Assembly: GCA_030390025.1 (NCBI GenBank)
Contig: CM059452.1
Coordinates: 7,378,001 to 7,442,000, forward strand
Direction of reading: 5' to 3'
From: Squalus acanthias
Lineage: Eukaryota
DNA length: 64,000 nt
Positions 10,771-53,979 of this stretch are shown in pieces. How positions within the stretch are numbered: the stretch's first letter is position 1; every line of letters begins with the position of its first letter. The notes under the pieces are model-generated. The model saw nothing but the letters and a program-made list of their open reading frames with translations, had not been told where the DNA came from and made no database searches. The position numbers and the translations under genes were made by a program.

Positions 10771-10809
10771 GGTTTTTGTACAGCGACAGATGAGTTTTAA
10801 AACATTGTG
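10771..10809 (-). promoter_or_regulatory. 23-RSS of V1
   Basis: CACAATG-23 bp-ACAAAAACC. Confidence 0.9.
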
Positions 10810-11252
10810 ATTCTCAGCCCGCAGAAATATACAGCGGTGTCCTGGATTTCTGCTCGAGTGATTGTTAAAGGAAACTTCTTTTCTGCATTTGCCTGGCCGG
10901 CCTCGAAACTTCCCTTGGCAAAATCCGCCTCGTATTTTCTGCTTTTATCCCGGTGCAAAATAAAGCGCGGAGCCTGGTTCGTGTGCTGTCGGTACCAGTA
11001 CAGATCGGGGTTACCGTTTCTTGTTGTGTAACTACAGTCTATTTTCACAACATCTCCTTCAGTGACATTCAACGCGGTCTGAGGTTGTGACACCGAATCT
11101 GCCTCAATCTGCCCTGAAATAAAAGTTAACTGAGGGTTGAATACAATACTGAGATAGCAAGTCTACCAACATCACATCAGTGCAAACAGACACAAGGCAT
11201 GGCCATACCTACCGAACACCAGCCACAATATAACGAGGTGACGGTACGACAT
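10810..11252 (-). CDS. TRAV/DV: TCR alpha/delta V segment (V1), open frame; leader 11252-11213, V exon 11113-10810
   Basis: Leader MSYRHLVILWLVF with GT/AG splice sites. DSVSQ..IDCSY..LYWYRQ..DTAVYFCGLR, followed by an RSS. Confidence 0.9.
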
Positions 11253-11770: not shown

Positions 11771-11816
11771 CTGTGGAAGATACAGAACAGATGAAATGTG
11801 TTTGATCCACAGTTAC

Positions 11817-11862
11817 CTGTCAGAAATGCCCACCACACAGCCCAGATGCTGAGTAGCCGCAT
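11817..11862 (-). pseudogene. Orphan TCR V leader exon (V13 family); V exon missing
   Basis: ATG..MRLLSIWAVWWAFLT G|GTAACT. Upstream flank is paralogous to 20690-21200 and 29020-29270. Confidence 0.8.
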
Positions 11863-12610
11863 TGTCGCTGTCTGCTCCGTAAAAGGGGGGTTGGATATTT
11901 GAAAACACTCGTACTAATCCCCGCCCTCAATAATCTCCTGTCGTGTCTCAGGATGCTCTGACCTCACTTTCTGGTGTCCCCAGTGGTGCTGTGAGACCGG
12001 TAGCTGGTGAGCTGGCTGCCAGTGAATGAAAACACCCCGAGCTGGGCTACAGTCATGGTCCTTATAGGGAATGTTTCCGCTTTTAGAGACCGGTGGGAAT
12101 TAAACCCTTTTCTGGTTATTGTAACCCGGAAGCTCAGCGATTGTTAATGGTGACATTAAACATTCTAGCGTTAAAGAGACATTCTGAAGGGCAATGGCCA
12201 TTGGGGAAATCTGTGATTGGTGCTTGTTTTAAAGAGCACAGTCACTACCTTGTGAAATCTGTTCATTGTGTATAAACTGTCTCTGGCCCAGCAACATACT
12301 CTGATCAAATAAACCGTGTGTACAGGCCGCGATCAAAGGGTCCGGGACACTGACAGGGGAGATGTGTAAAGGGCTGCACAATATTGCAGGCAGGCACCGA
12401 AAGGGCATCAAAGGACAAAAGGTAAATTAAGACAACACAAATAGATTTAGGGAGTTCATTTTCGTCTAAATACGAGTTTAAATCAATTAATATAATACTG
12501 TAGGGGACCTCACCAGTTCTTGTTGAGTGCCCTTTTTTGTCGCCCTTTTAAGAATCTCCCTGTGACTCTCACTGTGGAGGCTGAATTATCGCTTCTGGTT
12601 ATCGATGTGA

Positions 12611-12627
12611 GAGCGCCCTCTGGTGAT
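12611..12627 (-). promoter_or_regulatory. CTCF-binding motif about 24 bp 3' of the V2 RSS
   Basis: TCACCAGAGGGCGCTC on the minus strand. Confidence 0.7.
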
Positions 12628-12650
12628 CACTAACTGGAACTCTCAGTGCG

Positions 12651-12690
12651 TGCTTTTGTACGGGATCCGCTATATCTCTGCAGCAGTGTG
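12651..12690 (-). promoter_or_regulatory. RSS of V2 (24-bp spacer)
   Basis: CACACTG-24 bp-ACAAAAGCA. Confidence 0.8.
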
Positions 12691-13122
12691 GGGCTCATCG
12701 CACAGAAATAAACGGCGGTGTCGGAGACAAGCGCCCCAGCGATATTTAAAGGAACCGTTTTATTTATTTCGTTCATATCAGCAGAGAATCTGTCTGGTAA
12801 ATCTGGAGACTTGTCTCCATCCTCTGAGCTATATCTCTTCAGTAAATATCTCGGAGCTTCCCAGGGATACTGGATGTACCAGAACACAGTTGCACCAGCT
12901 GTCGAGTAACTGCAGCTCAGTAAGATGGTCTGTCCATCCTGAACCGTTAATTCAGAAGGATCCTGGAGCACTGAATCTTCGCCGTTCGTTCCTGTAACAA
13001 AACAGAGAATGTATCAAAAGTTTGGGAGTAAATATAACCCATGGAACACACACTAACCCTTTAAACATAGACTCACCGGGCAGCATGGGCATTAATATCA
13101 GTGAGGAACATGTGGAGCACAT
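12691..13122 (-). CDS. TRAV/DV: TCR alpha/delta V segment (V2), open frame; leader 13122-13077, V exon 12991-12691
   Basis: MCSTCSSLILMPMLP|GTNGEDSVLQD..LSCSYS..FWYIQ..DTAVYFCAMS. Splice sites intact. Confidence 0.88.
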
Positions 13123-13229
13123 GGTGCCTGGGTTAGAGTTTCACGGAAAATAGTCGAATGTTCTAAATATTCCAGTCCGATATTAAAGCTTAAACTCAGA
13201 TCAGGGACAGGCTTCACTTAAGGTTAAAG

Positions 13230-13385
13230 GGATCACTTAAGGCTAAAGGGATATGGGGAGAAAGTAGGGACATGGTACTGAATTTGGATGATCAGCCATG
13301 GTCTCATTAAATGGCGGAACAGGCTCGAGGGGCCGAATGGCCTACTCCGGCTCCTATCTTCTATGTTTCTATGTTTCTATGTTTC
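13230..13385 (+). mobile_element. CR1 3' tail fragment in the V2 promoter
   Basis: Matches the reverse complement of 4167-4310 and ends in (TTCTATGT)n. Absent from the paralogous V9 promoter. Confidence 0.8.
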
Positions 13386-14076
13386 ACTTACTGGGAGACT
13401 GAGGGGCGTTTCCCAGGGTCAGGATTGGCTATTCTCTCAGAACCGACGACAGTTGTGCACCAATCAGTATTAGTTGTGATCCAGTTACTTTCTCTGCCTA
13501 TTTCTTTATATTCCTCGGTGTCTCTACCTCTCTCTTTATCCCGGTGTCTGTCTGTCTCTTTCTGTCTTTCGTTTGCTCTGTCTCTCCCTACCGTGTTCCA
13601 AGAAGGTGCAGAATATAGAGAAATCCAATTTGTCTCAATCTCTCGTTTCAACACAACAAAGTGCTTCATTGATAGTAGCAGTTATACTGGATGAAATATA
13701 ATAACCACAGCTTATAGTCGTGTTTGAAATGGCAGCAGTTACAGCAAAATCCAACCGTATATTCATTAGGTGGGAATAATGAGACAAATCTACATCCTTT
13801 GTATGTGGTATGGTTCCTAAGATTTGGAATCTATGTGGTTCCATCTTATTTTGATGAGATTCATTCATCAGTTATGTCTTGGATATTAAAAATAAACAAA
13901 GAAATCACCAGGATTTACACTTGAAGTTGTATATGATTTTCTGCATTAAAGTGCATAATAATAATTGTAATAAGAATGAGAATAGCAAGAAAAATGTGAC
14001 GTAATCGGGCAACAACATCCATCAGTAATTTGAGAATTCCGTGCTTTCCCAGGCAGAGGGCCGTTTACTTGACATC

Positions 14077-14093
14077 GCCACCAGAGGGAGCGC
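14077..14093 (+). promoter_or_regulatory. CTCF-like motif upstream of the V3 promoter
   Basis: GCCACCAGAGGGAGCGC. Confidence 0.6.
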
Positions 14094-14226
14094 CCTCATC
14101 GTGTTTGCGGTTTCACTGCAGCAAATCAATCGCAAGATCACAAGGTCGTTGAGGATGAGGATTTAATCCCCGTCAAGTTCTCTGTTGTAAGGAGAACACT
14201 CTCACTCCGTTCCCTGCTCCCCTCTC

Positions 14227-14380
14227 TGACGTCATGAATTGGAGAACAAAGGATCTGTGAGTTGATTGGTTGAATTTGAAAACAAAGGCGCTGTGAGTTG
14301 ATTGGATGAATTGGAGAAAAAATGTTCCGTGAGCTGATTGGATATCTCCTGCTCACTCTGCCAGGAATGAACCAATCGGC
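14227..14380 (+). promoter_or_regulatory. V3 promoter: CRE plus multiple CCAAT boxes
   Basis: Perfect TGACGTCA at 14227-14234 followed by several ATTGG/CCAAT motifs in short imperfect repeats. Confidence 0.6.
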
Positions 14381-14479
14381 AGAGAGACCGGATATTACTC
14401 AACATCTTCTCAACTCTTGATTAAGACAATTACAGGTTCAACCCGTTCTGTTCAAATCCACCATCAACTCCCTGCAAAC

Positions 14480-15000
14480 ATGTTGGCTGTTACTTTTTGT
14501 TTATTCGTCACAGCTGCAGCTCTCTTAACTGGTAATGTTTACAAGTTACACAATCTTTCTCCTGCAGGTGTCATTGACATCCTTTTAACAGCGTTTTCTC
14601 TCTATTTGCAATGGTTATTACGTCACCTTTATGATCTTAGTAATAATAAAAAGATGAAAAAGCTTAAAGTTCTGTATTTCTAAATTTCTGCAGGTGTAAG
14701 TGCTGCAGACTCGGTCTCACAGGGGCCGCTTGCAACGATACAGTTTGAAGGAGACTCAGTGACCATTAATTACACTTATTCGACCACTGCTCCTTCATAT
14801 TCCTTACAACTGTACCGTCAGGACCCCGACAAAGGGCCCACATTCCTAATCTACAGTCCTTTCTACGGAGATGTTTTCAAAGCAGAGGGCGCAGGGGCTC
14901 GATTTTCTGCATTTCTCGACACTTCGAAAAGCGTGGGGAATTTCACCATCCACGGCCTGCGGCTGTCTGACAGCGCGGTGTATCACTGCGGGCTGAGAGA
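14480..15000 (+). CDS. TRAV/DV: Atypical TCR alpha/delta V segment (V3), open frame, Cys23->Tyr and Trp41->Leu; leader 14480-14531, V exon 14694-15000
   Basis: MLAVTFCLFVTAAALLT|GVSAADSVSQ..VTINYTYS..SLQLYRQ..DSAVYHCGLR. Splice sites intact. Confidence 0.85.
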
Positions 15001-15039
15001 CACAGTGACAGGAACCAGAGGGAGCCTCGTACAAAAACA
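15001..15039 (+). promoter_or_regulatory. 23-RSS of V3
   Basis: CACAGTG-23 bp-ACAAAAACA. Confidence 0.92.
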
Positions 15040-15444
15040 TGTGACAAGGTGAGCAAAAGAGCGGGCAGTGTGGGGAGAAACGGGGACTGTCTGTACTTAT
15101 CACAGGAGTGTGTCCGTGAAAAATACAGATAAATCAATCGCTGTCCAAATTACAATACAGGACTAGAATAAAGGTTATTATTCATAATAATAATCTTGCT
15201 GTTAATTTCATAATAAGATGTTTGATTGGATAATGCTTACAATCCCTGTTCATGTAATGGGCACCTCAACTTTCAATCTTAGTGAAAAAAATATAAAACT
15301 TGTTCTCAGTGTCAGAATCGCACTCAGACCTGGCGCTCCAGTCGGCAGGAAATTAACTGAACGGAGGGGAAACATTCAGTAACGATTTAAGAAACCATAG
15401 AATCAAACACTTTCAGAACAATGCGGTCGCTCCTGAAATGTGAC

Positions 15445-16038
15445 CCCGTGCGAGCTGTGGGATCACGTGACTCAGTTAGAGCCAATGGCAGCACACCATC
15501 TTCCATTCATAAGTCTCACAGCATGGCTGTTAAATCTATGAATCTTACACCCCCCCAAAATAACAGCTAAACCTCAATTAAATTAAAAAAAAAAACCCAT
15601 CACATTAATAAAATAAGTATAGTTAATTAAATTAACCATTTTAAATAAAAAATTAAATTTTTGAAAAAATTTAAAATCTTTTAAAAAGTTATAAAAATAA
15701 ACTTACCTGTCTTTAATGTCTCTAAAAAAGATATACCTGTAAAAAAAAATTCAAAAAAATACTTAATTCACTACTTACCTTCTTAAAAGCGGGTCTTACT
15801 CCTCCTTTTTACATTTCCAAAATCTTCCCTACTTACCTGCGCGTCCAAAGCATGAAGTGCACAGCGTGCGCGCAGCCTGTAGCGCGCACGCGATGCACCC
15901 AGGCCCCGCCCCCTTTTCAGAAGAGCAATTGCCGGTTTTCAGCGCATGCGCAGGGCATGCAGAAAACCGGCAATTGGAGTGGGAATACGCGAGAGTACGC
16001 AGTGCGTACTCTCGCGTCCCGGGATCAATTTTCGGCCC
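15445..16038. mobile_element. Partial MITE (left end lost) inserted into V4
   Basis: Homologous to 16726-17487. Right TIR AATTTTCGGCCC abuts V4 FR1. Confidence 0.7.
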
Positions 16039-16283
16039 TTCAGCGCTTGTTTTCAAGTTGCAGGTTAGTGAGATTTTACTTCCCTCTTCAATCGTCCCTT
16101 CGGGAACAGGCTGTTCCACTGTGATATAAAATAATAGTAAAAGTGATTATTATCATCATCATCACTTGACTAATAGTAACATTTGGGTTTCAGCAGTCAG
16201 GGGGAGAATGGATTTTAGCTGGTAAGGAAATACTTACTGAGAAGTGATATAATGACGAGGAGCGGTGCGAGACGGTTCCGCAT
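16039..16283 (-). pseudogene. Truncated TCR V pseudogene (V4, V12 family)
   Basis: Leader MRNRLAPLLVIISLL (16283-16238), then VEQPVPEGTIEEGSKISLTCNLKTSA, then the MITE. No FR2/FR3 and no RSS. Confidence 0.8.
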
Positions 16284-16725
16284 GATGGTTCCTGAGTCTC
16301 TAACTCTGCAGTCCGGGAACTCCTCTGTCGGAGCATAAATCCAGATCCCCGCACCACTGCACTGCTGATCCAACAAATGCCAAACAGGCAACAGCGGCAG
16401 CAATCTCTCCAATCACACAGGGCAGACAAGGCGGGTCAGAGCGAGAGCAGCAAACGGAAACTGTGGGCGGGGCTGCCGCTGACTCAAAATTGAGCGAATT
16501 CAAGTCTCTGTAATCGCAGAAAGTGCGCGGCGCCGCCTTGCTGCACTCGGAGCTGATGGAGCGGAAAAGGCGATGGTTGTGTCTCGAGAAGTCTGTGGTC
16601 AACTTCTCCTGTTCACTGAGCAAGTGAATGGAATAAATAGAGGTGGAGGGAAATGAAGGAATTGCACAGCTTCAGAAATAATGACCGGGTTTAGTCAGCT
16701 CCAATCTGGAGTTTTGAGACACAAT

Positions 16726-17487
16726 GGCCCAGAAATTGGAGTTCGATGGTTGCCGCGGGGGTAAGGATCCCCCGCGATATCGCACTCAGCGCCTACCTTT
16801 ATGGTTTTGGCCCACACGAACTTCAGTTCCTGGGCCTCTCCCTGGTGCCGGCGCGCAGTGTGTCCGTGTCCCAGAGGCGCAGTTAATTCGATGCGACCTC
16901 TGGGATCACGTGGGCCAGTTAGAGCCAATGGCAGCACACCATCTTTCATTCATAGTTTTGACAGCAAGTGCTGTCAAAACTATGAATACAACAAGCCCCC
17001 AAAAGAACAGCTAAACCTCAATTCAATTTTTAAAAAGCCATCACATTAATAAAATAACTATAGTTAAATAAATTAACCACTTTAAACAAAAATTTAAATT
17101 TTTGAAAAAATTTAAATTCTTTTTAAAAGTTATAAAATTAAACTTACCTTTCTTTAAAGTCTCTAAAAAAGATAAACCTGTTGAAATTTTTTTAAATAAT
17201 ACTTAATTAACTACTTACCTTGTTAAAAGGGGGTCTTACGCCTGCTTTCTTTATGTGTAAAATCTTCACCACTTACCTGCGCGTTCAAATCTGAAAACAA
17301 ACTAAGTGCGCTGCGTGCGCACAACTTGTAGTGCGCACGCGGTTCACTTAGGAACCGCCCCCTTCGCAATACCCGAAGTGCCGGTTTCCCGCGTATATGC
17401 AGTGCATGCAGGAAACCGGCACTTCGGGACCTAATACGCGAGAGTACACAATGCGTACTCTCCCGCATTAGGTCTAATTTTCGGGCC
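16726..17487. mobile_element. Non-autonomous DNA transposon (MITE), PIF/Harbinger-like
   Basis: Imperfect TIRs GGCCCAGAAATT and AATTTTCGGGCC, 3-bp TSD AAT (16723-16725, 17488-17490), AT-rich core. Confidence 0.72.
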
Positions 17488-17536
17488 AATGTTGTTCTGG
17501 TATCAGAGCGGGAGACTCCCATCTAAACCAGACACC

Positions 17537-17886
17537 ATGTGCTCCCCATGTTTCTGCTGGTCCTGTTGCCCGGTGAGTCTATGTTTAAAGGATCGTATGT
17601 ATTGCATGGGTTATATTTACTCCCAGACGTTGGACACATTTTGTACTTTTTTTTGTTACAACGGCGAAGCCTCATTGTCCCAGGATCCACCTGAATTAAC
17701 GGTTCAGGAAGGACAGACCTTAATACTGAACTCTAGTTACTCCACAGCCGATAGATTTCCCTACCTCTTCTGGTACAACCAGCATCCGGGGGAAGATCTG
17801 AAATATTTAATGAGGAGATACAAATCGGGGCAGGGAGACAAGGCTCCAGATTTCCCAGGACCGCTTCTTCGCTGATTTGGGCAAAG
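17537..17886 (+). pseudogene. TCR V pseudogene (V5, V2/V9 family)
   Basis: Leader carries a deletion, acceptor AG is lost, Cys23->Ser, frameshift in FR3, 3' end and RSS missing. Confidence 0.82.
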
Positions 17887-18015
17887 ACACAGACACGAAT
17901 ACAAATCGTTGAAATAGAAACCTGACGGTCTTTCGTCTCAGTGGGTTTGGGATCAAATTAACCCCATAGATAACAGCACAAAACAACACTTAATGGAGCT
18001 GTAAATTCTCGCTGA

Positions 18016-18054
18016 GGTTTTTGTACGGGACCTTTGCTTTTATCTAACGCTGTG
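18016..18054 (-). promoter_or_regulatory. 23-RSS of V6
   Basis: CACAGCG-23 bp-ACAAAAACC. Confidence 0.9.
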
Positions 18055-18551
18055 CCTCACTGCACAGTAATAGACCGCCCCGTCCTCCACACTCAGGCCG
18101 CTTATATTGAGGTAACCGTACTTTCTGGTCTTGTCAACAGCCGCCAGATATTGTCCTGAGGTTTCCTCTCCCTTCAGTGCTACTGCTTTGCTAATTATCC
18201 AGCTTGGAGGCTGTGCCGGTTTCTGCCGATACCATTGCATGTAGTCAATATCCGGGCTTTTATATTCACAATCTAACTGCACGGAACCCCCTGTTGACAC
18301 GGCAATTTTCACCGGAGACTGAGTTACTGGATCTGCACACAGTCCGCCTGTGAAGATAGGGGAACAGAAGAGCAGAAGATTAAATCGAAACTTGTATGAG
18401 AGTGTGTAACCCTCCATCTACACAGCTGTCCATCATGTGGATATGTTTGATCGGTAATTGCATTAAATCCCTGCACAATCTCTTTGCATCAATCTTTCAA
18501 AATAATCCAATACTTACTGTTCAACACAGCCGCCAGTATTATTAGAAACAT
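18055..18551 (-). CDS. TRAV/DV: TCR alpha-like V segment (V6), open frame; leader 18551-18518, V exon 18347-18055
   Basis: MFLIILAAVLN|SGLCADPVTQSP..LDCEY..MQWYRQ..DGAVYYCAVR. Confidence 0.9.
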
Positions 18552-18748
18552 GTCTGATTGAATCTCTCACAGTGACTTGGAATTGAATGAGGCAGAGATT
18601 GAGAAGGAGAGCGGTAATCCGGGCTGTTCAGTTCATTGTTCCACCCACACACTACAGGGGGCGGCCCCATTGTGACCTCATTCAGGCTTCGATTGTTGTT
18701 GGCTTTGGCGTTTATTTCACGTGACTTTCTAATTACCATTCTTGAGTT

Positions 18749-18766
18749 TGGCGCCCTCTGCTGGCG
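18749..18766 (-). promoter_or_regulatory. CTCF-binding motif upstream of V6
   Basis: CGCCAGCAGAGGGCGCCA on the minus strand. Confidence 0.75.
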
Positions 18767-19233
18767 CATTGTGTAACATTGGGCTTAGAATGAGGTCATT
18801 GAGGGGATTTAGGGCTTTTGGTCATATATAAAAACACGATTGCCAGCTATTGACTCTCGAAGAGCAAGATTATAGCTGGTCACAGCCGCTCATCATTCCT
18901 GATGCGGTGTAATCCCTTAATTATGCTCTCACTCTATTTCTTCCCAGTTGCTTGCTCAGTAAGCAAGAGTAGTTTGACCACAGGCGTCATGAAGTGACGA
19001 ACAAAGGAGCTATGAGCTGAGTGGGTGAATTGGAGAACAAAGCAGCTGTGAGTTGTTTGGAAGAATTGGAGTAAAAAGGAGCTGTGAGCTGCCTGAATCT
19101 CACTTGCTGACTCTGTCAGGAATGAACCAATCGACAGAGACGCCGGATATCATTCAACACCTTCCCAAGTCTTGACTAAAATGTTTCAGGTTTAACCCGT
19201 TCTGTTCAAATCTGTTATCAACTCTCTGCAAAC

Positions 19234-19795
19234 TTGTTAGGAGTTACTTTTTATTCATTCATCACAGATGCGGCTCTCTTAACTGGTAAAGTTTACAAGT
19301 TACACAATCTTCCCTCTTGTGAGTGCCATAGAGAATCTTCCTTTTCCCTGTATTTTCTCGCTATTTCTTGTATATTCCATCACCTTGATGCTATCAGTTA
19401 TTTAAAAAATGATAATAAAAGTTTAAAGTTCTGTAATTCTAAATTTCTGTCGGTGTTAGTTGTGCGGACTCGGTCTCACAGGGGCCGCTTGCAGAGATGC
19501 AGTTTGAAGGTGTCTCGGTGACCATTAATTACAGCTATTCGATCACTGCTCCTTCACATTCCTTACAACTGTACCGTCAGGACCGCGACAAAGGGCCCAC
19601 ATTGCTGATCTATATCCCTTCCTACGGAGATGTTTTCAAAGCAGAGGGCGCGGGGGCTCGATTTTCTGCATCTCTCGACACTTCGAGAAGTGAGGGGAAT
19701 TTCACCATCGGCGGCCTGCGGCTGTCTGACGCGGTGCATCACTGCGGGCTGAGAGACACAGTGACAGGAACCAGAAGGGGGCCCGTACAAACACA
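19234..19795 (+). pseudogene. TCR V pseudogene (V7), duplicate of V3, with RSS
   Basis: ATG->TTG, mutated acceptor and indels. Retains NYSYS and LQLYRQ. RSS CACAGTG-23-ACAAACACA at 19757-19795. Confidence 0.85.
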
Positions 19796-20506
19796 CTGCC
19801 GGAACATGACAAGGTGAGCGGGATAGCGGTCAGTGTGGAGAGAAACGGGGACTGTCAGTACTTCTCACAGGAGAGTGTCTATATAAAAAGAGAGAAATCA
19901 GCAACAATCCAATTGACAGTACAGAACAGGAAACATCATGTTTATTATTCATAAAAATAATCGTGCTGCTAATTTCATAATAGATATTCGATGGGACGGT
20001 GCTTCCAAACCCTTTTCATGTAATGGGCACCTCAACTTTCAAAGTTAGTGAAACAAATATAAACCAGTTCTCGTTCAGTGTCAGAATCGCACTCAGACCT
20101 GGCGCTCCAGTCGGCAGGAAATGAACTGAACGGAGGGAACACATTCAGTGACGATGTAATAAACCATCGAGGAGTCAAAACCCCTTCAGAACAAAGAAGT
20201 CTCGGCTGAACTGTGACCCCGCGAGACTCCCATTCCCCAGCTGGTGCGCAAACTCAGAGAAAACTGTCCAGAAAACAGGCAAAAGAGCAACAGTCAATAG
20301 TCTGAAGATGAAGGTGGCAGTGATTCAGGAGAGACAGTTCCCAGTGAGTAACAGGGAAAACAACGCGGAAACTGCACAGACTGAACCCAACCGACAAATG
20401 AGAGACTTTGGGAACAGTTCTCAGGATGGCCGGAACCGCAAACAGCACAAAGTGAGCCTTATATCCGGCTTCAGCAGGCGGAGCCTCTGATCTACAAAGC
20501 GGCGGG

Positions 20507-20687
20507 AGTTTCTGTACCAGGGTTTAACTGGTTTCCATCAGTGTGGTCTCAGGGCGCAGTAATAAACTGCAGTGTCGGTCAGCTGCAGCCCCGAGATGGT
20601 TAAACTGGTGAATTGATGAAATGTGTTTGGTCCACAATTACCTGTCAGAAATGCCCCCCACACAGCCCAGATGCTGAGTAGCCGCAT
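20507..20687 (-). pseudogene. Internally deleted TCR V (V8, V13 family): leader joined to FR3 end, RSS retained
   Basis: Leader 20687-20642. Intron start is fused to FTSLTISGLQLTDTAVYYCALR. RSS CACACTG-23-ACAGAAACT at 20545-20507. Confidence 0.85.
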
Positions 20688-21217
20688 TGTCGCTGTCCGC
20701 TCTGTAAAAGGGGGGTTGGATATTTGAGGACACCGTTCTAATCCCCGCCCTCAATAATCTGCTGTCGTGTCTCAGGATGCTCTCACCTCACTTCCTGGTG
20801 TCCCCAGTGGTGCTGTGAGACCGGTAGGTGGTGAGCTGGCTGCCAGTGAATGGAAACACCCCGAGCTGGGCTACAGTCAGTGTCCTTATAGGGGAATGGT
20901 TCCGCTTTTAGAGACTGGGATGGAAATGAAACCCTTGTCTGGTTATTGTAACCCGGAACCTCGGGATTGTTAATGGTGACAGAAAACATTCCAGCATTAA
21001 AGAGACATTCTGAAGGAGAATGGGCATTGGGGGAACTCTGTGATTGGTGCTTGTTTTAAAGAGCGCAGTCACTACCTTGTGAAATCTGTCCATTGTGTAT
21101 AAACTGTCTCTGGCCCAGCAACGTACTCTGATCAAATAAACCCTGTTTACAGGACCGGGAGACTGACAGGAGAGATGAGTAAAGGACTGCACAATATTGC
21201 AGGCAAGGAATGTGCAT

Positions 21218-21722
21218 CATAGAATCCTACTGCGCAGAAGGGCCCGTCGTGCCGGCTCTTTGAAAGAGCAGTCCAATTTAGCCCCACACCCCAGCTTCTT
21301 CTCCTTAACCCTGCAAACTAGTTCTCTTGAAGTACATGTTTAGTTGCCTTTTGAAAGTTCCGATCGAATCTGATTCCACAACCCTTTCAGGTAATGCATT
21401 CCAGATCTTAACAACCTTCTGGTGAAGAAATGTCTCCTCATTTCCCCTCTAGTTCTTTTGTCAATTATTTTAAATCTGTAACCTCTGGTTACTGACCCAC
21501 TTCTCAGAGGAATCAGGTTCTCCCGATTTGCTCTCATATTTTTGGACACCTATATTAGGTCTCCCCATGAACTTCTCTGCTCTAAGTAGAAGAATCCCAG
21601 CTTCTCCAATCTCTCCATATAACTGAACTCCCTCATCCCTGGCATCATCCAGGTAAACCTCCTCTGTACCGTCTCCAGGGCCTTGACATCCTTCCTAAGC
21701 TGTGGTGCCCAGAATTGTACAC
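21218..21722 (-). mobile_element. CR1 LINE 3' fragment
   Basis: CVQFWAP.LRKDV.ALE.VQRRFT and TRG.RFK motifs. Confidence 0.85.
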
Positions 21723-21920
21723 AATGGAGAAATGGCAAAAGGGGAGTTAAGGCGTCACAGACATAATTTGTGAAGTTCATTTTTATTATAAATACGAGTT
21801 TACATCACCAAAAAAATTCCGCCAGTGGACCTGACCTGTAGTTGTTGAGAGTTGTGTTTTGTTTCTGTTTTCAGAGGGTCCCTGTGGAGGCTGAATGATC
21901 GCTGCTGTTTATCGGTGTGA

Positions 21921-21937
21921 GAGCGCCCTCTGGTGAG
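21921..21937 (-). promoter_or_regulatory. CTCF-binding motif about 24 bp 3' of the V9 RSS
   Basis: CTCACCAGAGGGCGCTC on the minus strand. Confidence 0.7.
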
Positions 21938-21960
21938 CGATAACTGGAACTCTCAGTGTG

Positions 21961-21999
21961 GGTTTTTGTACGGGACCGCTCTATCTCTGTAGCAGTGTG
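21961..21999 (-). promoter_or_regulatory. 23-RSS of V9
   Basis: CACACTG-23 bp-ACAAAAACC. Confidence 0.88.
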
Positions 22000-22431
22000 G
22001 GGTTCATGGCACAGAAATACACGGCGCTGTCGGAGACAAGAACCGTGGTGATATTTAAAGGAACGGTTTTGATTTCTTTGTGCAAAACAGCAGAGAACCT
22101 GTCTGGTAAATCTGGAGACTGATCTCCCGACCCCGAGCTATATCTCTTCAGTAAATATCTCGGAGCTTCACCGGGATACTGAATGTACCAGAACAGAGTT
22201 GAACCAGCTTCCGAATAACTGCAGTTCAGTATTACGGTCTGTCCCTCCTGAACCGCTAATTCAGACGGATCCTGGGACACTGATTCTTTGCCACTCGTAC
22301 CTGTAACAAAACACAGAATGTATCAAAAGTCTGGGAGTGAGTATAACCCTTGGAACACACACTGATCATTTAAACATAGACTCACCGGGCAGCACGACCA
22401 TTATTATCAGTAAGGAACACGGGGAGCACAT
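22000..22431 (-). CDS. TRAV/DV: TCR alpha/delta V segment (V9), open frame, paralog of V2; leader 22431-22386, V exon 22300-22000
   Basis: MCSPCSLLIIMVVLP|GTSGKESVSQD..LNCSYS..FWYIQ..DSAVYFCAMN. Confidence 0.9.
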
Positions 22432-23367
22432 GGTGTCTGGTTTAGATTTAGACAGAAAATAGCAGATCGTTTTAAATATGTTGACCCTTCTGTTCTTATA
22501 TTAAAGAGTAAACTCAGATCAGGGGCAGACCTCACTTATTGGGAGACTGAGGGGCGTTTCCCAGGGACAGGATTGGCTGGTATCTCAGAACTGACACCAG
22601 CTGTGCACCAATCAGTGTTAGTTGTGGACCAATTACCGATGCCTCCCGACAAACCCTTTCCTTGCCTAGCTATGCGAGTATCCATCTCGCTCTGTCTCGC
22701 TCTCTCTCTCTCTCTCTCTCTCCTTCTTCTGTCTCGGTGTCACCCACTGTTTAATTTGGTGTCATTCTCTTTCCCTTTCTCTCTGTCTGTCTGTCTGTCT
22801 CTCTCTCTATTTCGGTGTCACTCACTCTGTTTAACTTTGTTTCTCTCTCACTTTCTCTCTCTCTCTCTCTTTCTCTCTTTCTCTCAGTAAGGTGTAAAGC
22901 GAAATATAATCTAAACCAGTCTCTATCACCGGTATCACTGAGTCCTCTCCACAGCTAATGAGCTCCATTGTTAGTCATAGCCTCAAGATTACGAGGGACA
23001 TGACAAGTGGACAGCCCTCGGCACCTGTGAGAAAGCTTTTAAAATGTGATCTTCTGGATCTGTACCACTTCCAGGACTTTTACTTTTAGTGCTTGATCCT
23101 GTTATTCATCCCAGAAATCTGAAGGTCTGTGCTAACACTGGGGGTGGAAATATCTGAATTTGACCCTGTGTTAAAATGGTTGAGAAATTTCTCTTATCCC
23201 AACACTGACAGCAATGACTTTAACTGGAGAAACCCGAACGTATCAGGCTGTATTTTCCTAATCATTTTCTGTACAACCTCTCGTGGAGTCAATCCCTGGT
23301 ATGTTCCTGAGGTGCAGCACGACAACCCACCCCATCTCACCCCCTTCCCCTATGTCGACCTGTGCCA

Positions 23368-23889
23368 TGTTTTTGTATGAGGGCCGAGGGATCCTTATTC
23401 ACTGTGGGTCTCAGGGCACAGTAATACACGGCGCTGTCTGTGACCTTCAAGCTTTCAAGGATAAGTGAAAAGTGCCGTGTGTCCGGTTGGGATTCCCGCT
23501 GAAGTGTTCAAAACCCGGAGCTGTCTCGTTATTCCCATAACTATCGGCTCTGAGCAGATACTGAGGGGCTTGTTTGGGGAACTGTCGATACCAGAATAGG
23601 TTATAGAATGTAGCTGATCCCGATACAGAGTAACTGCAGGTTATTGCTGAATCTGCACCCTCTTCTGATCCGACTCCTTGTTCTGACTGGAACACCGAGT
23701 CTCCGTTACTCGTCTCTGAAAATAAACAGCGGGCACACAGCGGGTTAGACGGAGTAACAGAAAGAGAATAATCTCCCGGAGATGGAGATGGGAAATTGTC
23801 TGAGCAATTGGGAATGTTGTAGGAAGGCTCCAATATCACCCACCTGTGATCAGGACAATAACCAGAGTTAGGCAGAGTGTCACTTCCAT
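23368..23889 (-). pseudogene. TCR V (V10) with a single frameshift in FR3 and an intact RSS
   Basis: Leader MEVTLCLTLVIVLIT (23889-23844), V exon from 23715. One base is missing near 23450, before LKVTDSAVYYCALR. RSS CACAGTG-23-ACAAAAACA at 23406-23368. Confidence 0.85.
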
Positions 23890-24076
23890 GGTTCCAGTCT
23901 GAACTCCAGAAACAAGAGACTGTGATCACTGCTTGTACCGGGCCTGGAACGGGAAGAACTGAAACAGCGCGGTGATCTCATCAGATCGGCTGGGATTTCT
24001 TCTCCCCGCCCATTTGTATCCCTCGAACCAACCACTTCCTGTAGTTGGGGATCATGTCCTTTAGCAAGTGATCAGA

Positions 24077-24094
24077 GAGCGCCCTCCTGTGGAC
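24077..24094 (-). promoter_or_regulatory. CTCF-like motif
   Basis: GTCCACAGGAGGGCGCTC on the minus strand. Confidence 0.6.
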
Positions 24095-24292
24095 AGTACA
24101 GGCTTGACGTACTGCATTGGAAACACAGACACAGACATATACATACATATCACATACAGATATATACATACACACATACACACTGATATATACACATACA
24201 AACACATACACACACGTAAAGAAATATGCATGCACATAGACACACACACAAACATTGACATACACACAGACTGGTGCACGCAGAGACACATT

Positions 24293-24618
24293 TTTTAATT
24301 AGTTCCAGGATGTGGGCGTCACTGGCAATGCCAGCATTTATTGCCCATCCCTAATTGCCCTTGAGAAGGGGGTGGTGAGCCGCCTTCTTGAACCGCTGCA
24401 TTCCTTGTGGTGAAGGTACTCCCACAATGCTATTAGGGAGGGAGTTCCAGGATTTTGACCCAGTGACGATGAAGGAACGGTGATATATTTCCAAGTCAGG
24501 ATGGTGTGTGACTTGGAGGGGTACATGCAGCTGATGGTGTTCCCATGCATCTGCTGCCCCTGTCCTTCTAGGTGGTAGAGGTCGAGGGTTTGGGAGGTGC
24601 TGCCGAAGGAGCCTTGGT
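24293..24618 (-). mobile_element. CR1-clade LINE 3' fragment within CA-rich simple repeats
   Basis: Homologous to 446-775. Confidence 0.85.
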
Positions 24619-24907
24619 CAGTTTATGCATTCACATACACATACACAGACATATGCGCACACAGACATATACACACAGAGACACAAACACAGAATCATAC
24701 TCACAGACATAAACAGAGCCAAATACACACACACAGACATATACACACAGAGATATAAACACAGACATATACGTACACACTGACATATACATGCACCCAC
24801 GTGTCAAAGTGATCCCAGATACACAAAATGGTTAAATGCTTGGAGGTTATTGATGTATATTCAGCTGAAAGTTGTTTCAGACGAATGACCTTGAACAAGT
24901 GATCAGA

Positions 24908-24925
24908 GAGCGCCCTCCAGTGTCC
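24908..24925 (-). promoter_or_regulatory. CTCF-like motif (local duplicate of the 24077 site)
   Basis: GGACACTGGAGGGCGCTC on the minus strand; shares the flank CAAGTGATCAGAGAGCGCCCTCC. Confidence 0.55.
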
Positions 24926-25460
24926 ACTACGACATAGAGCATTGGAAACAAACAGGGAGACGCATATACCGACATCCTCAGATAAACACACACAAATGCA
25001 GACAAAACGTTCGAGAGTAAACTGTCGTTAATTGGAGTTCCGAGTTAGTGACATTGAGACAACATCGTGTCAGGTTTTATCTATCTAATGGAACATTTTC
25101 CACCAGCAAGAAAACCCTAAAATCGATTCCTCATTAACCGTGAGCATCGGTTTCAAAACACCGGTAATGGTCAGGCAGAATCCTCATCTATCCCGGGATC
25201 AGATGATCAGATGTGCGGGACAAAGCAGAACAGCTCACGGAGCCTGTGTGCCGGGGCCGCGGGCAGTGATGATGAACACAGACAGCGACAATGATCACCG
25301 GCAGCTCATTGAAACCACGCTCTTGGTTTGATTTAGGAAATGACGGGACTCCGTGTGCTGACAGAAACACTTCAAATTCTCCGCTTCAGTCCGAGAGCTG
25401 CAACTGAGAGGAGGCACCGGGTGAAGTGCGGGCTCCCGGTGTGGGGAGACTGCGGCCATT

Positions 25461-26428
25461 ATGGAGTTTGGGGTTTTGATTGTTTGGGGCCTAACAACGT
25501 TGTTATTCGGTTGGTTTATTTATTTATACATCTGTGTCTGTCTGTCCATTCCACTATTGACACAACTGCATTCTATTCATCTATCTCTAGGTCTGCCCCG
25601 TTCTCTCTCTCTGTTAATCCCTCTGTCTCTCTGTCAATCTCTCTGTCTCGCTCTCTCAGGCCCTCTCTCTGTCTCTCTCTCTTTTTGTCTCTCTCTCTAT
25701 CTCCCTCCCTCTCTTCTATTCATCGATCTCTAGGACTATCCACCTGTCTGTCTAATTGTCTGTCTGTCTGCCTGTCTGTCTCGCTCTCTGTCTGTCTGTG
25801 TCTCTCTGTCCGTCTGTCTGACTGTCTGTCTATCTGCCTGCTTTTCTGTCTCTATATCTGTCCCTCTGCTTATCTTTCTGTTTTTCTGTCTGCCTTTATG
25901 CCTCTCTGTCTGTCTGTTTGTTTATCAACTTGTCTATCTATCTTTATCTAGCCATTAAACCGATGCTATCTCTTTCTGTCTCTTTGTCTCCCTGTGTATA
26001 CAGAGAGAGATAGAGAGAGATATTCTTAAAGAATGAGAAATATGTGATCTGTTCTTCTCTCTGTTTCCACGGGTAACCAGGAATGTTTTTGGCAGGACTG
26101 TGTTATGGAGACTCCGTCGATCAGTGGCCAACAGAAGCCCAATATCTGTAAGGAACGTCGATGAGCATTAATTGTAACTATTCAACGTCAGAAGTGAGCT
26201 ATTCCCTGCAGCTTTATCGTCAGAGCCAGAACAAGGCTCCGACTTTCCTAATTCAGGCACATTCCTTTGGAAAGCACGAAATTAACGGTCGTTTCTCTGT
26301 CATTCTGGAATAGTAAAAACTATCGGTGTTTTCAACTTGACTGAGCTGCAGCTCGCTGACAGCGCCGTGTACTACTGTGCACTGAGGCCCACAGTGAGAA
26401 GGGCCTCTGGACACCTCGTACAGTGTTA
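25461..26428 (+). pseudogene. TCR V pseudogene (V11): Cys23 present, Trp41->Leu
   Basis: Leader MEFGVLIVWGLTTLLF (25461-25509). V exon from 26096: DSVDQ..YL*GTSMSINCNYS..SLQLYRQ..(frameshift)..DSAVYYCALR. CACAGTG at 26390 with a degenerate nonamer. Confidence 0.82.
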
Positions 26429-26471
26429 CCGTGATCTGTGAGATCAGCTCAAAGAGAGAAACTTTAAACAC

Positions 26472-26489
26472 GTCCACCAGGTGGCGCTG
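26472..26489 (+). promoter_or_regulatory. CTCF-binding motif 3' of the V11 RSS
   Basis: GTCCACCAGGTGGCGCTG. Confidence 0.75.
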
Positions 26490-27132
26490 ACAGAGCGCGG
26501 ATTCACACCGCAGGTCATGTTACATGAACCAATACTGACTGACGCTTTCTCAATATAACTTAACGTGAAATTGCTTTTCATCTCACATTTATGCTTATTA
26601 ATATTTTCCATTAATTTACAGTTTCATAATTTCAGAACTTAGTTAAGTGGAAACGAAATGCGCATCTCGAGAACATTCGGATCACTTGCCATTTTGTTCT
26701 ATTTCTCACCGCTAGAAAACCTGGTTTTAACTCACTTCACTGTTGAATATTGCGACAACTATTGAAGAATATAATAATTCTGCTATTCCTATCGCGAGCC
26801 TGTTTGCCCCGAATTTGTAACGAATGCGAAAGTGACAAAGCCCTTATCGAGAGGCAGAGTGATATCATATGCGAAGCGGACATTATTATTGAATTCAGTT
26901 CCTCACAGGTCGATCCCACGTGTGACAACACCGCCCGCGGCAGCCCCACCCACAGCTTCCGTTTGCTGCTCTCGCTCTGACCCGCCTTGCCTGCCCTGTG
27001 TTATTGGAGAGATTGCTGCCGCTGTTCCCTGTTTGGCATTGGTTGGATCAGCAGTGCAATGGAGATGGAATCTGTAATTCTGCGCTGACATAGTATTTCC
27101 CGGACTGCAGAGTTACAGACTCAGGGAGCATC

Positions 27133-27629
27133 ATGCGGAACCGTCTCCTACCGCTCCTCGTCATTATATCACTTCTCAGTAAGTATTTCCTTCCCAGTAA
27201 AAATCCATTCTGACTGCTGTAACCCAGATGTTATTGTTGGTGAAATGATGATGATGATGATGTATATTACTATGATTTTATGTTAGAATGGAGCCACCAA
27301 GACATAGTAGAACAGCCGATCCCTGAAATGACGGTTGAAGATGAAAGTAATGTCACCCTAACCTGCACCTTGAAAACATGCACTACTAACCTTTATGTAT
27401 TCTGGTACAGTCAGCACCCCGGGCAGACCCCAAAGTAAGTGATTCATATTAGTGCAGGGATAGTAAACTGGAACCCCGACTTCACTGACCCATTCTCTTC
27501 TACTTTTAATAAAACTACCAAGATTACCGAGCTAACGATCGGCAACGCCCTGATCTCCGACACCGCCGTGTATTTCTGTACCATGACCCCACACTGCTGC
27601 AGAGATATAGCGGATCCCGTACAAAAACC
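27133..27629 (+). pseudogene. TCR V pseudogene (V12) with one in-frame stop; RSS with 24-bp spacer
   Basis: Leader 27133-27178, V exon from 27287, TAA at 27436-27438, DTAVYFCTM. CACACTG-24-ACAAAAACC at 27590-27629. Confidence 0.85.
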
Positions 27630-27651
27630 CACACTGAGAGTTCCAGTTAGT

Positions 27652-27669
27652 GCTCACCAGAGGGCGCGC
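27652..27669 (+). promoter_or_regulatory. CTCF-binding motif 3' of the V12 RSS
   Basis: GCTCACCAGAGGGCGCGC. Confidence 0.7.
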
Positions 27670-28218
27670 TCACACCGATAAACAGCAGCGATCATCAGCC
27701 TCCACAGTGAGAGTCACAGGGACCTTCTGAAAAGGCCAATTAAACACAACTCACAAGAACCGGTGACGTCCACCGGCGGAATTATATTAGTTGTTGATTT
27801 TAACTCGCATTTATAATAAAAATTCATTGCGCAAAAGCATCTACGGCGCCTTTTGTCTTTCGATGCCCTTTCCGTGCCTGCCTGTCCCTTCTCATACCCT
27901 GTCTCCACTCTTTACCCACAATCGTATGAACTTTCTTCGTCCAGTGTTTAGTTTAACGATGTAAAACCTTTGCTTCTGCTCGACATATGAATTCAGAACC
28001 GCTCCAACCCAGCTTCCCAAAAGCAGGAACTGCAGACAGGGCAGTCAATAAACTCAGTGGCCTGGAGATTCGTCTCGGTCCATGGAACTGAATATCAGAC
28101 GCTGCGTATAACCGGCGGCCGATCCGATACCGTCCGTCTTGCGCCACCGTCCGAGACGAAGTTTTGGGCCAAAATCAATCACACCCTGTGTACCGACATC
28201 TGAACAGTTCACAGAATA

Positions 28219-28235
28219 TCCACCAGAGGGCGTCA
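28219..28235 (+). promoter_or_regulatory. CTCF-binding motif
   Basis: TCCACCAGAGGGCGTC. Confidence 0.65.
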
Positions 28236-29269: not shown

Positions 29270-29733
29270 ATGCGGCTACTCAGCATCTGGGCTGTGTGGG
29301 GGGCATTTCTGACAGGTAATTGTGGACCAAACACATTTCATCTTTTCTCTCATTTCTAACATGGTTTGAATCTGAATTTTAAACACCCGCCGGTCTGATC
29401 TTTTCCTGTTTGAACATGTTTTTCAGATCTGAGTCTTGGAGATTCTGTCACTCAGCCGCTGTCCTCAGGAGTTAAGACAGAAGGAGAAGCGGTGACTTTA
29501 AGCTGTACCTATGATACTACACAGAGCGGCTATTATTTATACTGGTACCGGCAACACCCAGACACACAGCCCGAGTTTATACTGAGCAAATACTCGAGCG
29601 GTGCTGAAGATAAAGCAGATTTTGCTAAAACCCGTTTCTCTGCTGAGCTCCAGACCTCGACTAAATTCACCAGTTTAACCATCTCCGGGCTGCAGCTGAC
29701 TGACGCTGCCGTGTATTACTGCGCCCTGGAACT
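29270..29733 (+). CDS. TRAV/DV: TCR delta/alpha V segment (V13), open frame; leader 29270-29315, V exon 29427-29733
   Basis: MRLLSIWAVWGAFLT|DLSLGDSVTQ..LSCTYD..LYWYRQ..DAAVYYCALE. Confidence 0.92.
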
Positions 29734-29772
29734 CACAGTGATGGAAAGCAGTCTCAGCCCTGTACAAAAACT
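29734..29772 (+). promoter_or_regulatory. 23-RSS of V13
   Basis: CACAGTG-23 bp-ACAAAAACT. Confidence 0.92.
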
Positions 29773-33670: not shown

Positions 33671-33676
33671 TTTATT
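33671..33676 (-). terminator. Poly(A) signal for the membrane IgM transcript
   Basis: AATAAA about 450 nt after the TM2 stop. Confidence 0.6.
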
Positions 33677-34123
33677 AATAATTTCACACAGTACAATTTA
33701 CAGAGAAGTTTTTAAAAAGTTAACATCAAAGTGAAAATAACAACTGAGCGTCACATTGAGACCAGAACACAGGCGGTCTGAGCTGCCAGTTATCTGTACA
33801 ACTGTAACAGACACCAGAGAGAAAAAACAGGGGCTCAACATAAAGGGAAGGGAACAATCGTGGATTAGGAACGAGAAAAGTTATTATTTACACATGAAAC
33901 ATTCAAACAACTGTAAGATGCATTTACAACATAGTCACGATTATCTCACACATTTCAAACACAGAGACGGAAATCCCGGTTATGATTTTCTCAGCTACAG
34001 ATTCGGATCTATTAACTGAAGGCATTTGACTCTGAGAATCACCAAGAGGATATATTTTATTTTCATGACACAGAGATGTTAATAAGCAGATGAGGAAAAT
34101 CCACGGCGTTCAAATTCAACCGT

Positions 34124-34132
34124 TCACTTCAC
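34124..34132 (-). CDS. IGHM: IgM TM2 exon (VK-stop)
   Basis: ttcttttatctctcAG|GTG AAG TGA, which gives the canonical KVK tail when spliced to TM1. Confidence 0.85.
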   Translation of the reverse strand: MK

Positions 34133-34257
34133 CTGAGAGATAAAAGAATGAAGCAGAGATTTACTGGTTTGTGGCATTTATCTCAGGGATTTTATCAGTG
34201 AGACTTTGTCAACCCGCTTCAGTCAGATCGAAGTGTGAATGGATTGAGTCTTTTCAA

Positions 34258-38955: not shown

Positions 38956-39086
38956 CACACACACACAAACATACTCCTACTGTCCTCCTCCCTCCGGTCG
39001 TCTCTGCCTGGGTTTCACACGCTGCAGTGTGGTCCCCCCGACCCCGCTGCTGGTCCACGCTGCGCCACTCCTGGACCTCGACCTCG

Positions 39087-39432: not shown

Positions 39433-39440
39433 CTTCTCAC

Positions 39441-50113: not shown

Positions 50114-50141
50114 CAAGAACTGAAATGCAATCGAGAGATTC

Positions 50142-53950: not shown

Positions 53951-53979
53951 TGATACCCTTGCCAAACACAAATCTATCC

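What the first reader, a model, noticed from the sequence alone, without database searches (positions are those of the whole stretch)
12611..28235. CTCF motifs sit just downstream of shark V RSSs and flip orientation at about 25-26 kb
Seen: CTCF-consensus motifs lie about 24 bp past the nonamer of V2, V9 and V12 and about 44 bp past V11, with further motifs at 14077, 18749, 24077, 24908 and 28219. Five of the six left of 25 kb point left; all three right of 26 kb point right. Established: RSS-proximal CTCF elements control proximal VH usage during RAG scanning and loop extrusion in mouse Igh. Inference: this logic may be ancestral to jawed vertebrates, and the divergent arrangement may form a loop boundary between the TCR and IgM domains.
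Basis: partly seen in the sequence, partly recalled or inferred. Interest (0 to 1): 0.7.

Follow-up and report, generated by a model that had tools for sequence, protein, structure and literature searches.

The report
CTCF motifs riding shark TCR V-genes
Nine strong CTCF-like DNA motifs cluster among shark T-cell-receptor V genes and mostly point the same way as the nearest V, so their apparent flip follows an inverted duplication; they likely act as V-linked chromatin anchors like those known in mouse antibody and T-cell-receptor loci, but binding is untested.

Summary
The motifs are real. All nine strong CTCF-like sites in the 64 kb lie at the reported coordinates and strands, inside a 19-kb island of 13 TCR alpha/delta-type V segments beside a shark IgM constant gene.

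The RSS link is thinner than it looks. V2, V9 and V12 carry copies of one 3' cassette, so there are two independent RSS-proximal cases (gaps 21 and 42 bp) among six motif lineages (post hoc P about 0.007-0.08). Two of the four genes are pseudogenes.

The flip is not significant alone (P 0.14-0.25). It sits on the axis (24.8-25.1 kb) of an inverted duplication with TCR Vs on both sides, so it does not separate TCR from IgM.

A better rule: 8 of 9 motifs share the strand of the nearest V (P 0.02), either just past the RSS or 187-386 bp before a leader. This resembles mouse Igh RSS sites and Tcra/d promoter sites. Likely role: V-linked CTCF anchors aiding long-range, orientation-tolerant recombination. 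Ancestry and binding are untested. My searches found no report of such sites in sharks.

The parts
10771..11252 (-). V1, TCR alpha/delta-type V with leader, open frame and 23-RSS; no CTCF motif within 120 bp of the RSS
11784..12120 (-). Orphan V13-type promoter and leader exon (ATG 11862), V exon lost
   Evidence: 92% to 29009-29348
12611..12629 (-). CTCF-like motif, 21 bp past V2 nonamer, same strand as V2 (19.7 bits); cassette copy A
12651..13122 (-). V2, open frame, RSS with 24-bp spacer; same family as V9 (73% aa)
14075..14093 (+). CTCF-like motif 386 bp upstream of V3 ATG, same strand as V3 (18.5 bits); the exception left of 25 kb
14480..15039 (+). V3, open frame but lacking the first Cys and the Trp of the V fold; 23-RSS
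16042..16479 (-). V4 relic (leader and start of exon), 81% to the 5' part of V12
17521..17887 (+). V5 relic of the V2/V9 family, 3' end and RSS missing
18016..18551 (-). V6, open frame, 23-RSS
18749..18767 (-). CTCF-like motif 197 bp upstream of V6 ATG, same strand as V6 (21.6 bits, exact consensus match)
19233..19795 (+). V7, V3-family pseudogene (start codon and splice acceptor altered); start coordinate approximate
20507..20687 (-). V8, V13-type gene with an internal deletion (leader joined to the 3' fragment), 23-RSS
21921..21939 (-). CTCF-like motif, 21 bp past V9 nonamer, same strand as V9 (17.0 bits); cassette copy B
21961..22431 (-). V9, open frame, 23-RSS with consensus nonamer; best named relatives are TCR alpha V regions
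23368..23889 (-). V10, frameshifted V with 23-RSS
24077..24095 (-). CTCF-like motif 187 bp upstream of V10 ATG, same strand as V10 (16.6 bits; not recovered by the consensus at 1 mismatch)
24908..24926 (-). CTCF-like motif, tandem paralog of 24077 (16.1 bits); 535 bp upstream of V11 ATG on the opposite strand, the one site not matching its nearest V
24800..25140 (.). Symmetry axis of the inverted duplication (midpoints 24801, 24898, 24978, 25140 of four nested inverted matches); coincides with the motif flip
25461..26428 (+). V11, V3/V7-like pseudogene (frameshifts, degenerate nonamer); putative leader at 25461
26471..26489 (+). CTCF-like motif, 42 bp past V11 nonamer, same strand (23.6 bits, strongest site); independent lineage
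27133..27629 (+). V12, pseudogene (in-frame stop); V4-type body joined to a V2/V9-type 3' end and 24-bp-spacer RSS
27651..27669 (+). CTCF-like motif, 21 bp past V12 nonamer, same strand (15.2 bits); cassette copy C, inverted relative to A and B
28217..28235 (+). Intergenic CTCF-like motif (18.7 bits) between V12 and V13, in sequence without a paralog in the island
29270..29772 (+). V13, open frame, 23-RSS; no CTCF motif within 120 bp of the RSS
33671..62541 (-). IgM heavy-chain constant gene, 3' part: CH2 62233-62541, CH3 51513-51824, CH4 50193-50534, TM1 about 39440-39570, TM2 about 34125, polyA signal at about 33671

Best explanation
The nine motifs cluster among shark TCR alpha/delta-type V genes and eight share the strand of their nearest V; they are likely CTCF-binding elements that belong to individual V cassettes and were carried along when those cassettes were duplicated and inverted, which would account for the flip at 25 kb. 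Shown: motif positions and strands, their paralogy, and the mirror axis at 24.8-25.1 kb. Two placements occur: just past the RSS (V2/V9/V12 at 21 bp, V11 at 42 bp) and 187-386 bp before a leader (V3, V6, V10). Inferred mechanism: CTCF bound at these sites would pause or anchor cohesin at the V gene in thymocytes, bringing it close to a distant D/J recombination centre and keeping the RSS or promoter accessible. Because Vs and motifs face both ways, joining would rely on loop-aided collision that tolerates inversion (as proposed for Igk and Trbv1), not only on one-directional RAG scanning.
For: Nine sites above 15 bits in the 19.3-kb island and none in the other 44.7 kb; 0.23 expected in shuffles. 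7 of 9 recovered with the published consensus. Strand matches nearest V in 8 of 9 (P 0.02 binomial and by permuting V strands), 6 of 6 lineages if 24077 represents its pair (P 0.016). The same cassette is minus at V2 and V9 and plus at V12. Four nested inverted matches centre on 24,801-25,140. The 14-bp core is identical in all three cassette copies; the block from nonamer to 40 bp past the core differs at 8/74, 7/77 and 3/73 sites versus 42/144, 46/149 and 37/142 further downstream (Fisher P 0.002, 0.0002, 0.00003). Between 24077 and 24908 similarity is centred on the motif. 8 of 9 sites keep the CpG at positions 15-16. Mouse V genes carry sites in both placements (PMC5859386 Table 2). Skate TAD borders show a CTCF orientation code (PMC10115646). 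In white shark, stingray and epaulette shark TCR Vs occur in both orientations, and in the first two they are interleaved with IgM clusters over megabases (PMC12227049 Table S1).
Against: No binding, accessibility or contact data. The weight matrix was recalled, not fetched. Only two independent RSS-proximal lineages; without V11 the enrichment is gone (1 of 5, P 0.11-0.19). Two of the four RSS-proximal genes are pseudogenes and V2 and V12 have 24-bp spacers, whereas in the mouse 7183 and Q52 families the sites mark functional genes. 7 of 11 RSSs have no motif within 120 bp, including those of intact V1, V6 and V13. Co-orientation falls to 6 of 7 (P 0.06) if 24908 is counted apart; the rule was found post hoc. 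The conserved block could reflect gene conversion, as V12 is a chimera. None of the nine meets the mouse VH motif at 2 mismatches and only 3 of 9 meet the human one. The island's CpG level is high overall (o/e 0.67), which weakens the CpG argument. The position of the TCR D-J-C region relative to the window is unknown.
Confidence: 0.55

Rival explanations
1. Boundary model (first reader, modified): the divergent 24908/26471 pair, or the three plus-strand sites facing IgM, form a loop boundary or 3' anchor that insulates the IgM minicluster from the TCR V genes.
For: Divergent sites mark insulation minima in skate. The three plus sites lie 5.4-7.2 kb beyond the IgM polyA signal and point into IgM, as mouse 3' CBEs point back into Igh. 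24908 is the one site not matching its nearest V, and 28217 is free-standing.
Against: TCR-type V11-V13 are on the IgM side of the flip. The split is not significant (P 0.14-0.25). It lies on the duplication axis. A second divergent pair (1445 bp apart) occurs at V2/V3. Both left-pointing sites next to the flip are the weakest by consensus. No site above 14 bits lies between V13 and IgM.
Confidence: 0.15
2. The sites are bound by CTCF but act on V promoters or as general insulators between neighbouring Vs; RSS proximity is incidental to tight gene packing and to duplication of one cassette.
For: Three independent sites lie 187-386 bp before a leader; each RSS-proximal site is also 0.6-1.6 kb upstream of the next co-oriented leader (for 12611, 21921, 26471). 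Mouse Tcra/d sites are mostly upstream of promoters. RSS enrichment rests on two lineages.
Against: 2 of 6 lineages within 50-68 bp of a nonamer on the V strand has P 0.007-0.012 under uniform placement. The conserved block spans RSS and motif together.
Confidence: 0.2
3. The motifs are non-functional relics or chance matches multiplied by duplication in a decaying, GC- and CpG-rich V island.
For: 8 of 13 V segments are broken or non-canonical. Five of nine motifs fall into two paralog groups.
Against: Six lineages with unrelated flanks remain, all in the island (P 0.004 against non-satellite sequence). Dinucleotide shuffles never gave more than 2 sites above 15 bits.
Confidence: 0.1

Closest known systems
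RSS-associated CTCF-binding elements of mouse and human proximal VH genes (VH81X type; PMC6746451, PMC6439775, PMC4914699)
   Same: Motif within 68 bp downstream of the nonamer, reading in the V's direction, inherited by V family; CpG near the 3' end of the core.
   Different: Here on TCR alpha/delta-type Vs. Core gap is 22 or 43 bp, against 17-19 (mouse) and 19 or 48 (human). Sites face both ways, against more than 98% one way. Two of four host genes are pseudogenes. Binding and effect on V usage are untested.
V-promoter CTCF sites of mouse Tcra/Tcrd (PMC5859386)
   Same: Same gene class; sites upstream of V leaders; similar ratio (9 per 13 Vs here, 144 bound sites per 131 Vs in mouse).
   Different: Mouse has 129 of 144 sites pointing to J-C; here 5 minus and 4 plus, tracking local V polarity. 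RSS-proximal sites are not listed for mouse Tcra/d in that table. The V island here abuts an IgM cluster.
Mixed-orientation Igk locus and Trbv1 CBE (PMC10121685, PMC10772921)
   Same: V genes and CTCF sites in both orientations; anchored loops plus diffusion allow inversional joining. Trbv1 is a TCR V whose downstream CBE is needed for its rearrangement.
   Different: Igk sites are mostly intergenic and reported not to correlate with V orientation (PMC5859386); here 8 of 9 match the nearest V. Tcrb sites all face one way.
Elasmobranch antigen receptor complex (PMC12227049)
   Same: TCR alpha/delta-type V exons of both orientations between IgM miniclusters.
   Different: The passages and table I read describe gene order only; regulatory motifs were not seen there.

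Membership tests
CTCF-binding element (CBE) | Match to the CTCF core consensus above chance | tested here: met
   9 sites above 15 bits with a recalled matrix vs 0.23 expected; 7 of 9 with published consensus at 1 mismatch, 11 in window vs 1.32 expected
CTCF-binding element (CBE) | CTCF occupancy in vivo or in vitro | not testable with these tools
   No ChIP, ATAC or EMSA data available
CTCF-binding element (CBE) | Upstream (zinc finger 9-11) module, optional | tested here: inconclusive
   No exact TGCAG at gaps 3-13 in any of 9 sites; partial matches only (examples from PMC11417384)
RSS-associated VH CBE (VH81X type) | Within 68 bp downstream of the RSS, reading in V direction | tested here: met
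   4 of 9 sites, 2 of 6 lineages, gaps 21 and 42 bp, all on the V strand
RSS-associated VH CBE (VH81X type) | Core at 17-19 bp (mouse) or 19/48 bp (human) from the nonamer | tested here: not met
   22 and 43 bp in the same convention
RSS-associated VH CBE (VH81X type) | Matches mVH or hVH motif within 2 mismatches | tested here: inconclusive
   0 of 9 for mouse motif; 3 of 9 for human motif, including V2 and V11 sites
RSS-associated VH CBE (VH81X type) | Host gene is an IgH V of clan II/III | tested here: not met
   V9 best named hits are TCR alpha V; single-domain PDB hits for V12 are TCR alpha chains; V3 family hits are uninformative
RSS-associated VH CBE (VH81X type) | Uniform orientation across the V domain, convergent with the recombination centre | tested here: not met
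   5 minus, 4 plus; recombination centre not in the window
RSS-associated VH CBE (VH81X type) | Presence tracks functional genes and raises V usage | tested here: inconclusive
   Present at 2 of 5 intact Vs and at 2 pseudogenes; usage not testable
Tcra/d-type V-promoter CBE | Site upstream of a TCR alpha/delta V leader, in V direction | tested here: met
   V3 (386 bp), V6 (197 bp), V10 (187 bp); 3 of 13 leaders scanned over 500 bp (V11 leader not in that scan)
Divergent-CBE domain boundary | Reverse site followed by forward site | tested here: met
   24908/26471 (1544 bp apart) and also 12611/14075 (1445 bp apart)
Divergent-CBE domain boundary | Separates the TCR V genes from IgM | tested here: not met
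   V11-V13 lie right of the flip; IgM ends near 33.7 kb
Divergent-CBE domain boundary | Insulation in contact maps | not testable with these tools
   No Hi-C data

The most novel reading that the evidence does not exclude
V segments carried a polarity-locked CTCF anchor two or four helical turns past the RSS before Ig and TCR V genes diverged. Sharks use these portable V-plus-anchor cassettes, in either orientation, to reel TCR Vs scattered among IgM clusters over megabases to the TCR D-J centre. The 22 and 43 bp gaps seen here differ by exactly 21 bp, echoing the two- and four-turn spacing noted in mammals.
Probability: 0.15. Interest if true: 0.75.

Novelty: new member of a known kind. Interest (0 to 1): 0.45.

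Why it matters
Shark TCR alpha/delta V genes are spread in both orientations among IgM clusters over megabases, and how they reach their D-J segments is open. A dense, V-linked set of CTCF motifs gives exact sites to test by CUT&RUN and Micro-C. If bound, it would extend V-associated CTCF architecture, described in mouse, human, chimpanzee and rabbit in the papers I read, to cartilaginous fish. The specific boundary claim does not hold up, and the ancestry claim needs genome-wide counts.

Tried and rejected
Single change-point in motif strand: not significant.

'All nine motifs match the nearest V': withdrawn after the V11 leader was found at 25461 with a relaxed donor rule; the correct count is 8 of 9.

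A shared transposon as source of all motifs: rejected as far as testable, since flanks of the six lineages show no homology beyond conserved V 3' ends; no repeat library was available.

V10/V11 as true mirror paralogs: only a 51-bp 3' match; V11 is closer to V3/V7, so the palindrome is imperfect and mosaic.

Degenerate motifs behind the other seven RSSs: best sense scores -6.9 to 3.3 bits, nothing found.

Upstream CTCF module: inconclusive.

Bacterial promoter scan of 31.4-32.4 kb: not applicable to a shark sequence.

Germline shark V flanks from Ott et al. 2018 (PMC5931798, passages only): no RSS flanks in the text; its supplements were not opened.

Benner et al. 2015 PNAS (recalled as possibly covering CTCF sites near RSSs): not held, so unseen; it may bear on novelty.

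No shark genome collection was available, so other loci and species stayed unchecked at DNA level.


Full report
Setting. The window holds satellite and LINE-like sequence to 9.3 kb, an island of 13 V segments at 10.8-29.8 kb, and the 3' part of an Ig heavy-chain constant gene on the minus strand. Eleven V segments end in an RSS with a 23- or 24-bp spacer (ten found; V11's degenerate one read). Six of seven translated V exons pass the Pfam V-set cut-off and V7 falls just below. V9's named relatives are TCR alpha V regions. The constant exons are C1-set; CH4 is 88% identical to IgM of Triakis and Heterodontus and 91% to a Scyliorhinus protein, so this is shark IgM, with its polyA signal near 33.7 kb. 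This layout matches the elasmobranch antigen receptor complex, where TCR alpha/delta-type Vs of both orientations lie between IgH clusters (PMC12227049; I read parts 1-2 of 8 and all of Table S1). V1, V2, V6, V9 and V13 splice to open frames with both cysteines; V3 is open but non-canonical; the other seven are broken.

Observation. All are in the island; none exceeds 14 bits elsewhere. Shuffles of 10-31 kb give a mean of 0.23 and a maximum of 2 in 100. The published consensus with one mismatch finds 11 sites in the window against 1.32 expected and recovers 7 of the 9, missing 24077 and 24908. The mouse VH motif at two mismatches recovers 0 of 9 and the human one 3 of 9. The concentration is beyond chance even after paralogs are collapsed to six lineages (P 0.004 against non-satellite sequence).

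Independence. The sites at 12611, 21921 and 27651 are copies of one V 3' cassette (33-37 of 40 upstream bases identical), and 24077 and 24908 are a tandem pair (74% over 97 bp); other pairs share no flank homology apart from conserved V ends. V12 is a chimera with a V4-type body and a V2/V9-type 3' end, RSS and motif. RSS-proximal sites are therefore 4 of 9 motifs but 2 of 6 lineages. Under uniform placement outside genes, 2 of 6 has P 0.007-0.024 if strand is required and 0.026-0.085 if not, for windows of 50-100 bp; without V11, 1 of 5 has P 0.11-0.19. These tests are post hoc. Seven of 11 RSSs have no motif within 120 bp. In the convention of PMC6746451 the gaps are 22 and 43 bp, against 17-19 in mouse and 19 or 48 in human (passages and sections 5 and 18). 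The two shark gaps differ by 21 bp, two helical turns, but two values prove little.

The flip. A best single split explaining 8 of 9 strands has P 0.14-0.25. Four nested inverted matches (V10/V11 ends, V9/V12 3' ends, V8/V13 leaders and 3' ends) have midpoints 24,801-25,140, so the flip lies on the axis of an imperfect inverted duplication, between the head-to-head promoters of V10 and V11 (putative V11 leader at 25461). TCR-type Vs lie on both sides, and IgM ends about 8.5 kb to the right of the axis. A second divergent pair sits at the V2/V3 head-to-head junction. Overall 8 of 9 motifs match the strand of the nearest V (P 0.02); the miss is 24908, the duplicate of V10's upstream site. By lineage this is 6 of 6 (P 0.016), or 6 of 7 (P 0.06) if 24908 is counted apart. 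An earlier 9-of-9 count is superseded.

Signs of constraint. The 14-bp core is invariant among the three cassette copies. The stretch from nonamer to 40 bp past the core is 4-11% divergent against 26-31% further out (Fisher P 0.002 or less). Gene conversion could give the same pattern. Similarity between 24077 and 24908 is centred on the motif. Eight of nine sites keep a CpG at positions 15-16, but the island as a whole is CpG-rich (o/e 0.67). Against function at the RSS: V11 and V12 are pseudogenes, and V2 and V12 have 24-bp spacers.

Mechanism. Shown: positions, strands, paralogy and the symmetry axis. Established elsewhere: proximal mouse VH genes have CBEs within 68 bp of the RSS that set their usage, and inverting the VH81X site lowers usage only modestly (PMC6439775, passages). 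Mouse Tcra/d sites are mostly upstream of V promoters with 129 of 144 facing J-C, and two Tcrb sites are near RSSs (PMC5859386, passages). Igk, with reversed Vs and CBEs, folds into many loops and is proposed to join by diffusion (PMC10121685, passages). The Trbv1 CBE anchors loops, and an inverted Trbv1 RSS still rearranges (PMC10772921, passages). Skate TAD borders carry oriented CTCF motifs (PMC10115646, passages). Inferred: the shark motifs are V-linked CBEs that pause or anchor cohesin and keep the RSS or promoter open. With both polarities present, one-directional scanning cannot serve all Vs, so an Igk/Trbv1-like mode is more likely (confidence 0.55). Rivals are a promoter or insulator role with incidental RSS proximity (0.2), an IgM boundary or 3' anchor (0.15), and non-functional relics (0.1).

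Membership and novelty. The sites meet the sequence test for CBEs and work, by geometry, like VH RSS sites and Tcra/d promoter sites. They fail three defining features of the VH81X class (spacing, host gene class, uniform orientation), so they are not filed there. Searches for shark + CTCF + T cell receptor delta + IgM (0 papers), CTCF + cartilaginous fish + recombination signal + loop extrusion (25 of 72 listed, at least 3 terms; none of those listed held all four), CTCF motif + RSS + vertebrates + superanchor and CTCF + shark + immunoglobulin + TCR + RAG (8 papers) showed, from listings and abstract starts, no report of CTCF sites at shark antigen receptor loci. The library lacks most subscription papers, including Benner 2015 and primary shark TCR locus papers, and supplements of PMC6746451 and PMC5931798 were not opened. 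PMC4914699 and the preprint 10.1101/2020.01.01.891473 were seen as passages only.

Verdict. This is a real, V-linked cluster of CTCF-like motifs whose flip is best explained by gene inversion, not by a TCR/IgM boundary. It is a new member of a known kind, interest 0.45, and directly testable.

Noticed in passing
window 27133-27884 vs 16042-16479 and 12387-12727: V12 is a chimera: V4-type leader and exon (81%) joined 36 nt before the heptamer to a V2/V9-type 3' end, RSS and CTCF motif. V2 and V12 share an identical 24-bp RSS spacer, one base longer than V9's.
   Followed up: partly
window 10220-10415 and 31701-31901; 9338-9661 and 32026-32357: Two paralogous CpG-rich, promoter-like elements (78% identical; CCAAT, CRE-like and YY1-like words, names recalled) bracket the V island, each beside a 330-bp element present once in each orientation (76%). 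Function unexplained.
   Followed up: partly
window 41085-49710: A 52-bp satellite of about 165 copies fills the IgM CH4-TM intron and carries 103 weak CTCF-like matches above 8 bits, all on the minus strand, none above 12 bits.
   Followed up: partly
window 15449-16016 and 16892-17465: Two copies (81%) of an element rich in short palindromes, resembling a non-autonomous DNA transposon; V4 is cut off next to the first copy.
   Followed up: no
window 14234-14343 and 18999-19091: A 36-bp tandem repeat in the V3 and V7 promoters, preceded in V3 by TGACGTCA, a CRE-like word of the kind recalled from TCR V promoters.
   Followed up: no
window 14693-14998, 19452-19754, 26085-26389: V3, V7 and V11 all read LQLYRQ where V domains normally have the conserved Trp; V3 and V7 also lack the first Cys.
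   Followed up: no
window 20507-20687 and 11784-12120: V8 is a V13-type gene with an internal deletion that keeps leader and RSS; a third V13-type leader survives without its exon upstream of V1.
   Followed up: partly
window 2048-4166, 6428-9336 and 63120-63838: A 27-bp satellite left of the V island, interrupted by a LINE-like insert, and a 38-bp minisatellite in the IgM intron upstream of CH2.
   Followed up: no
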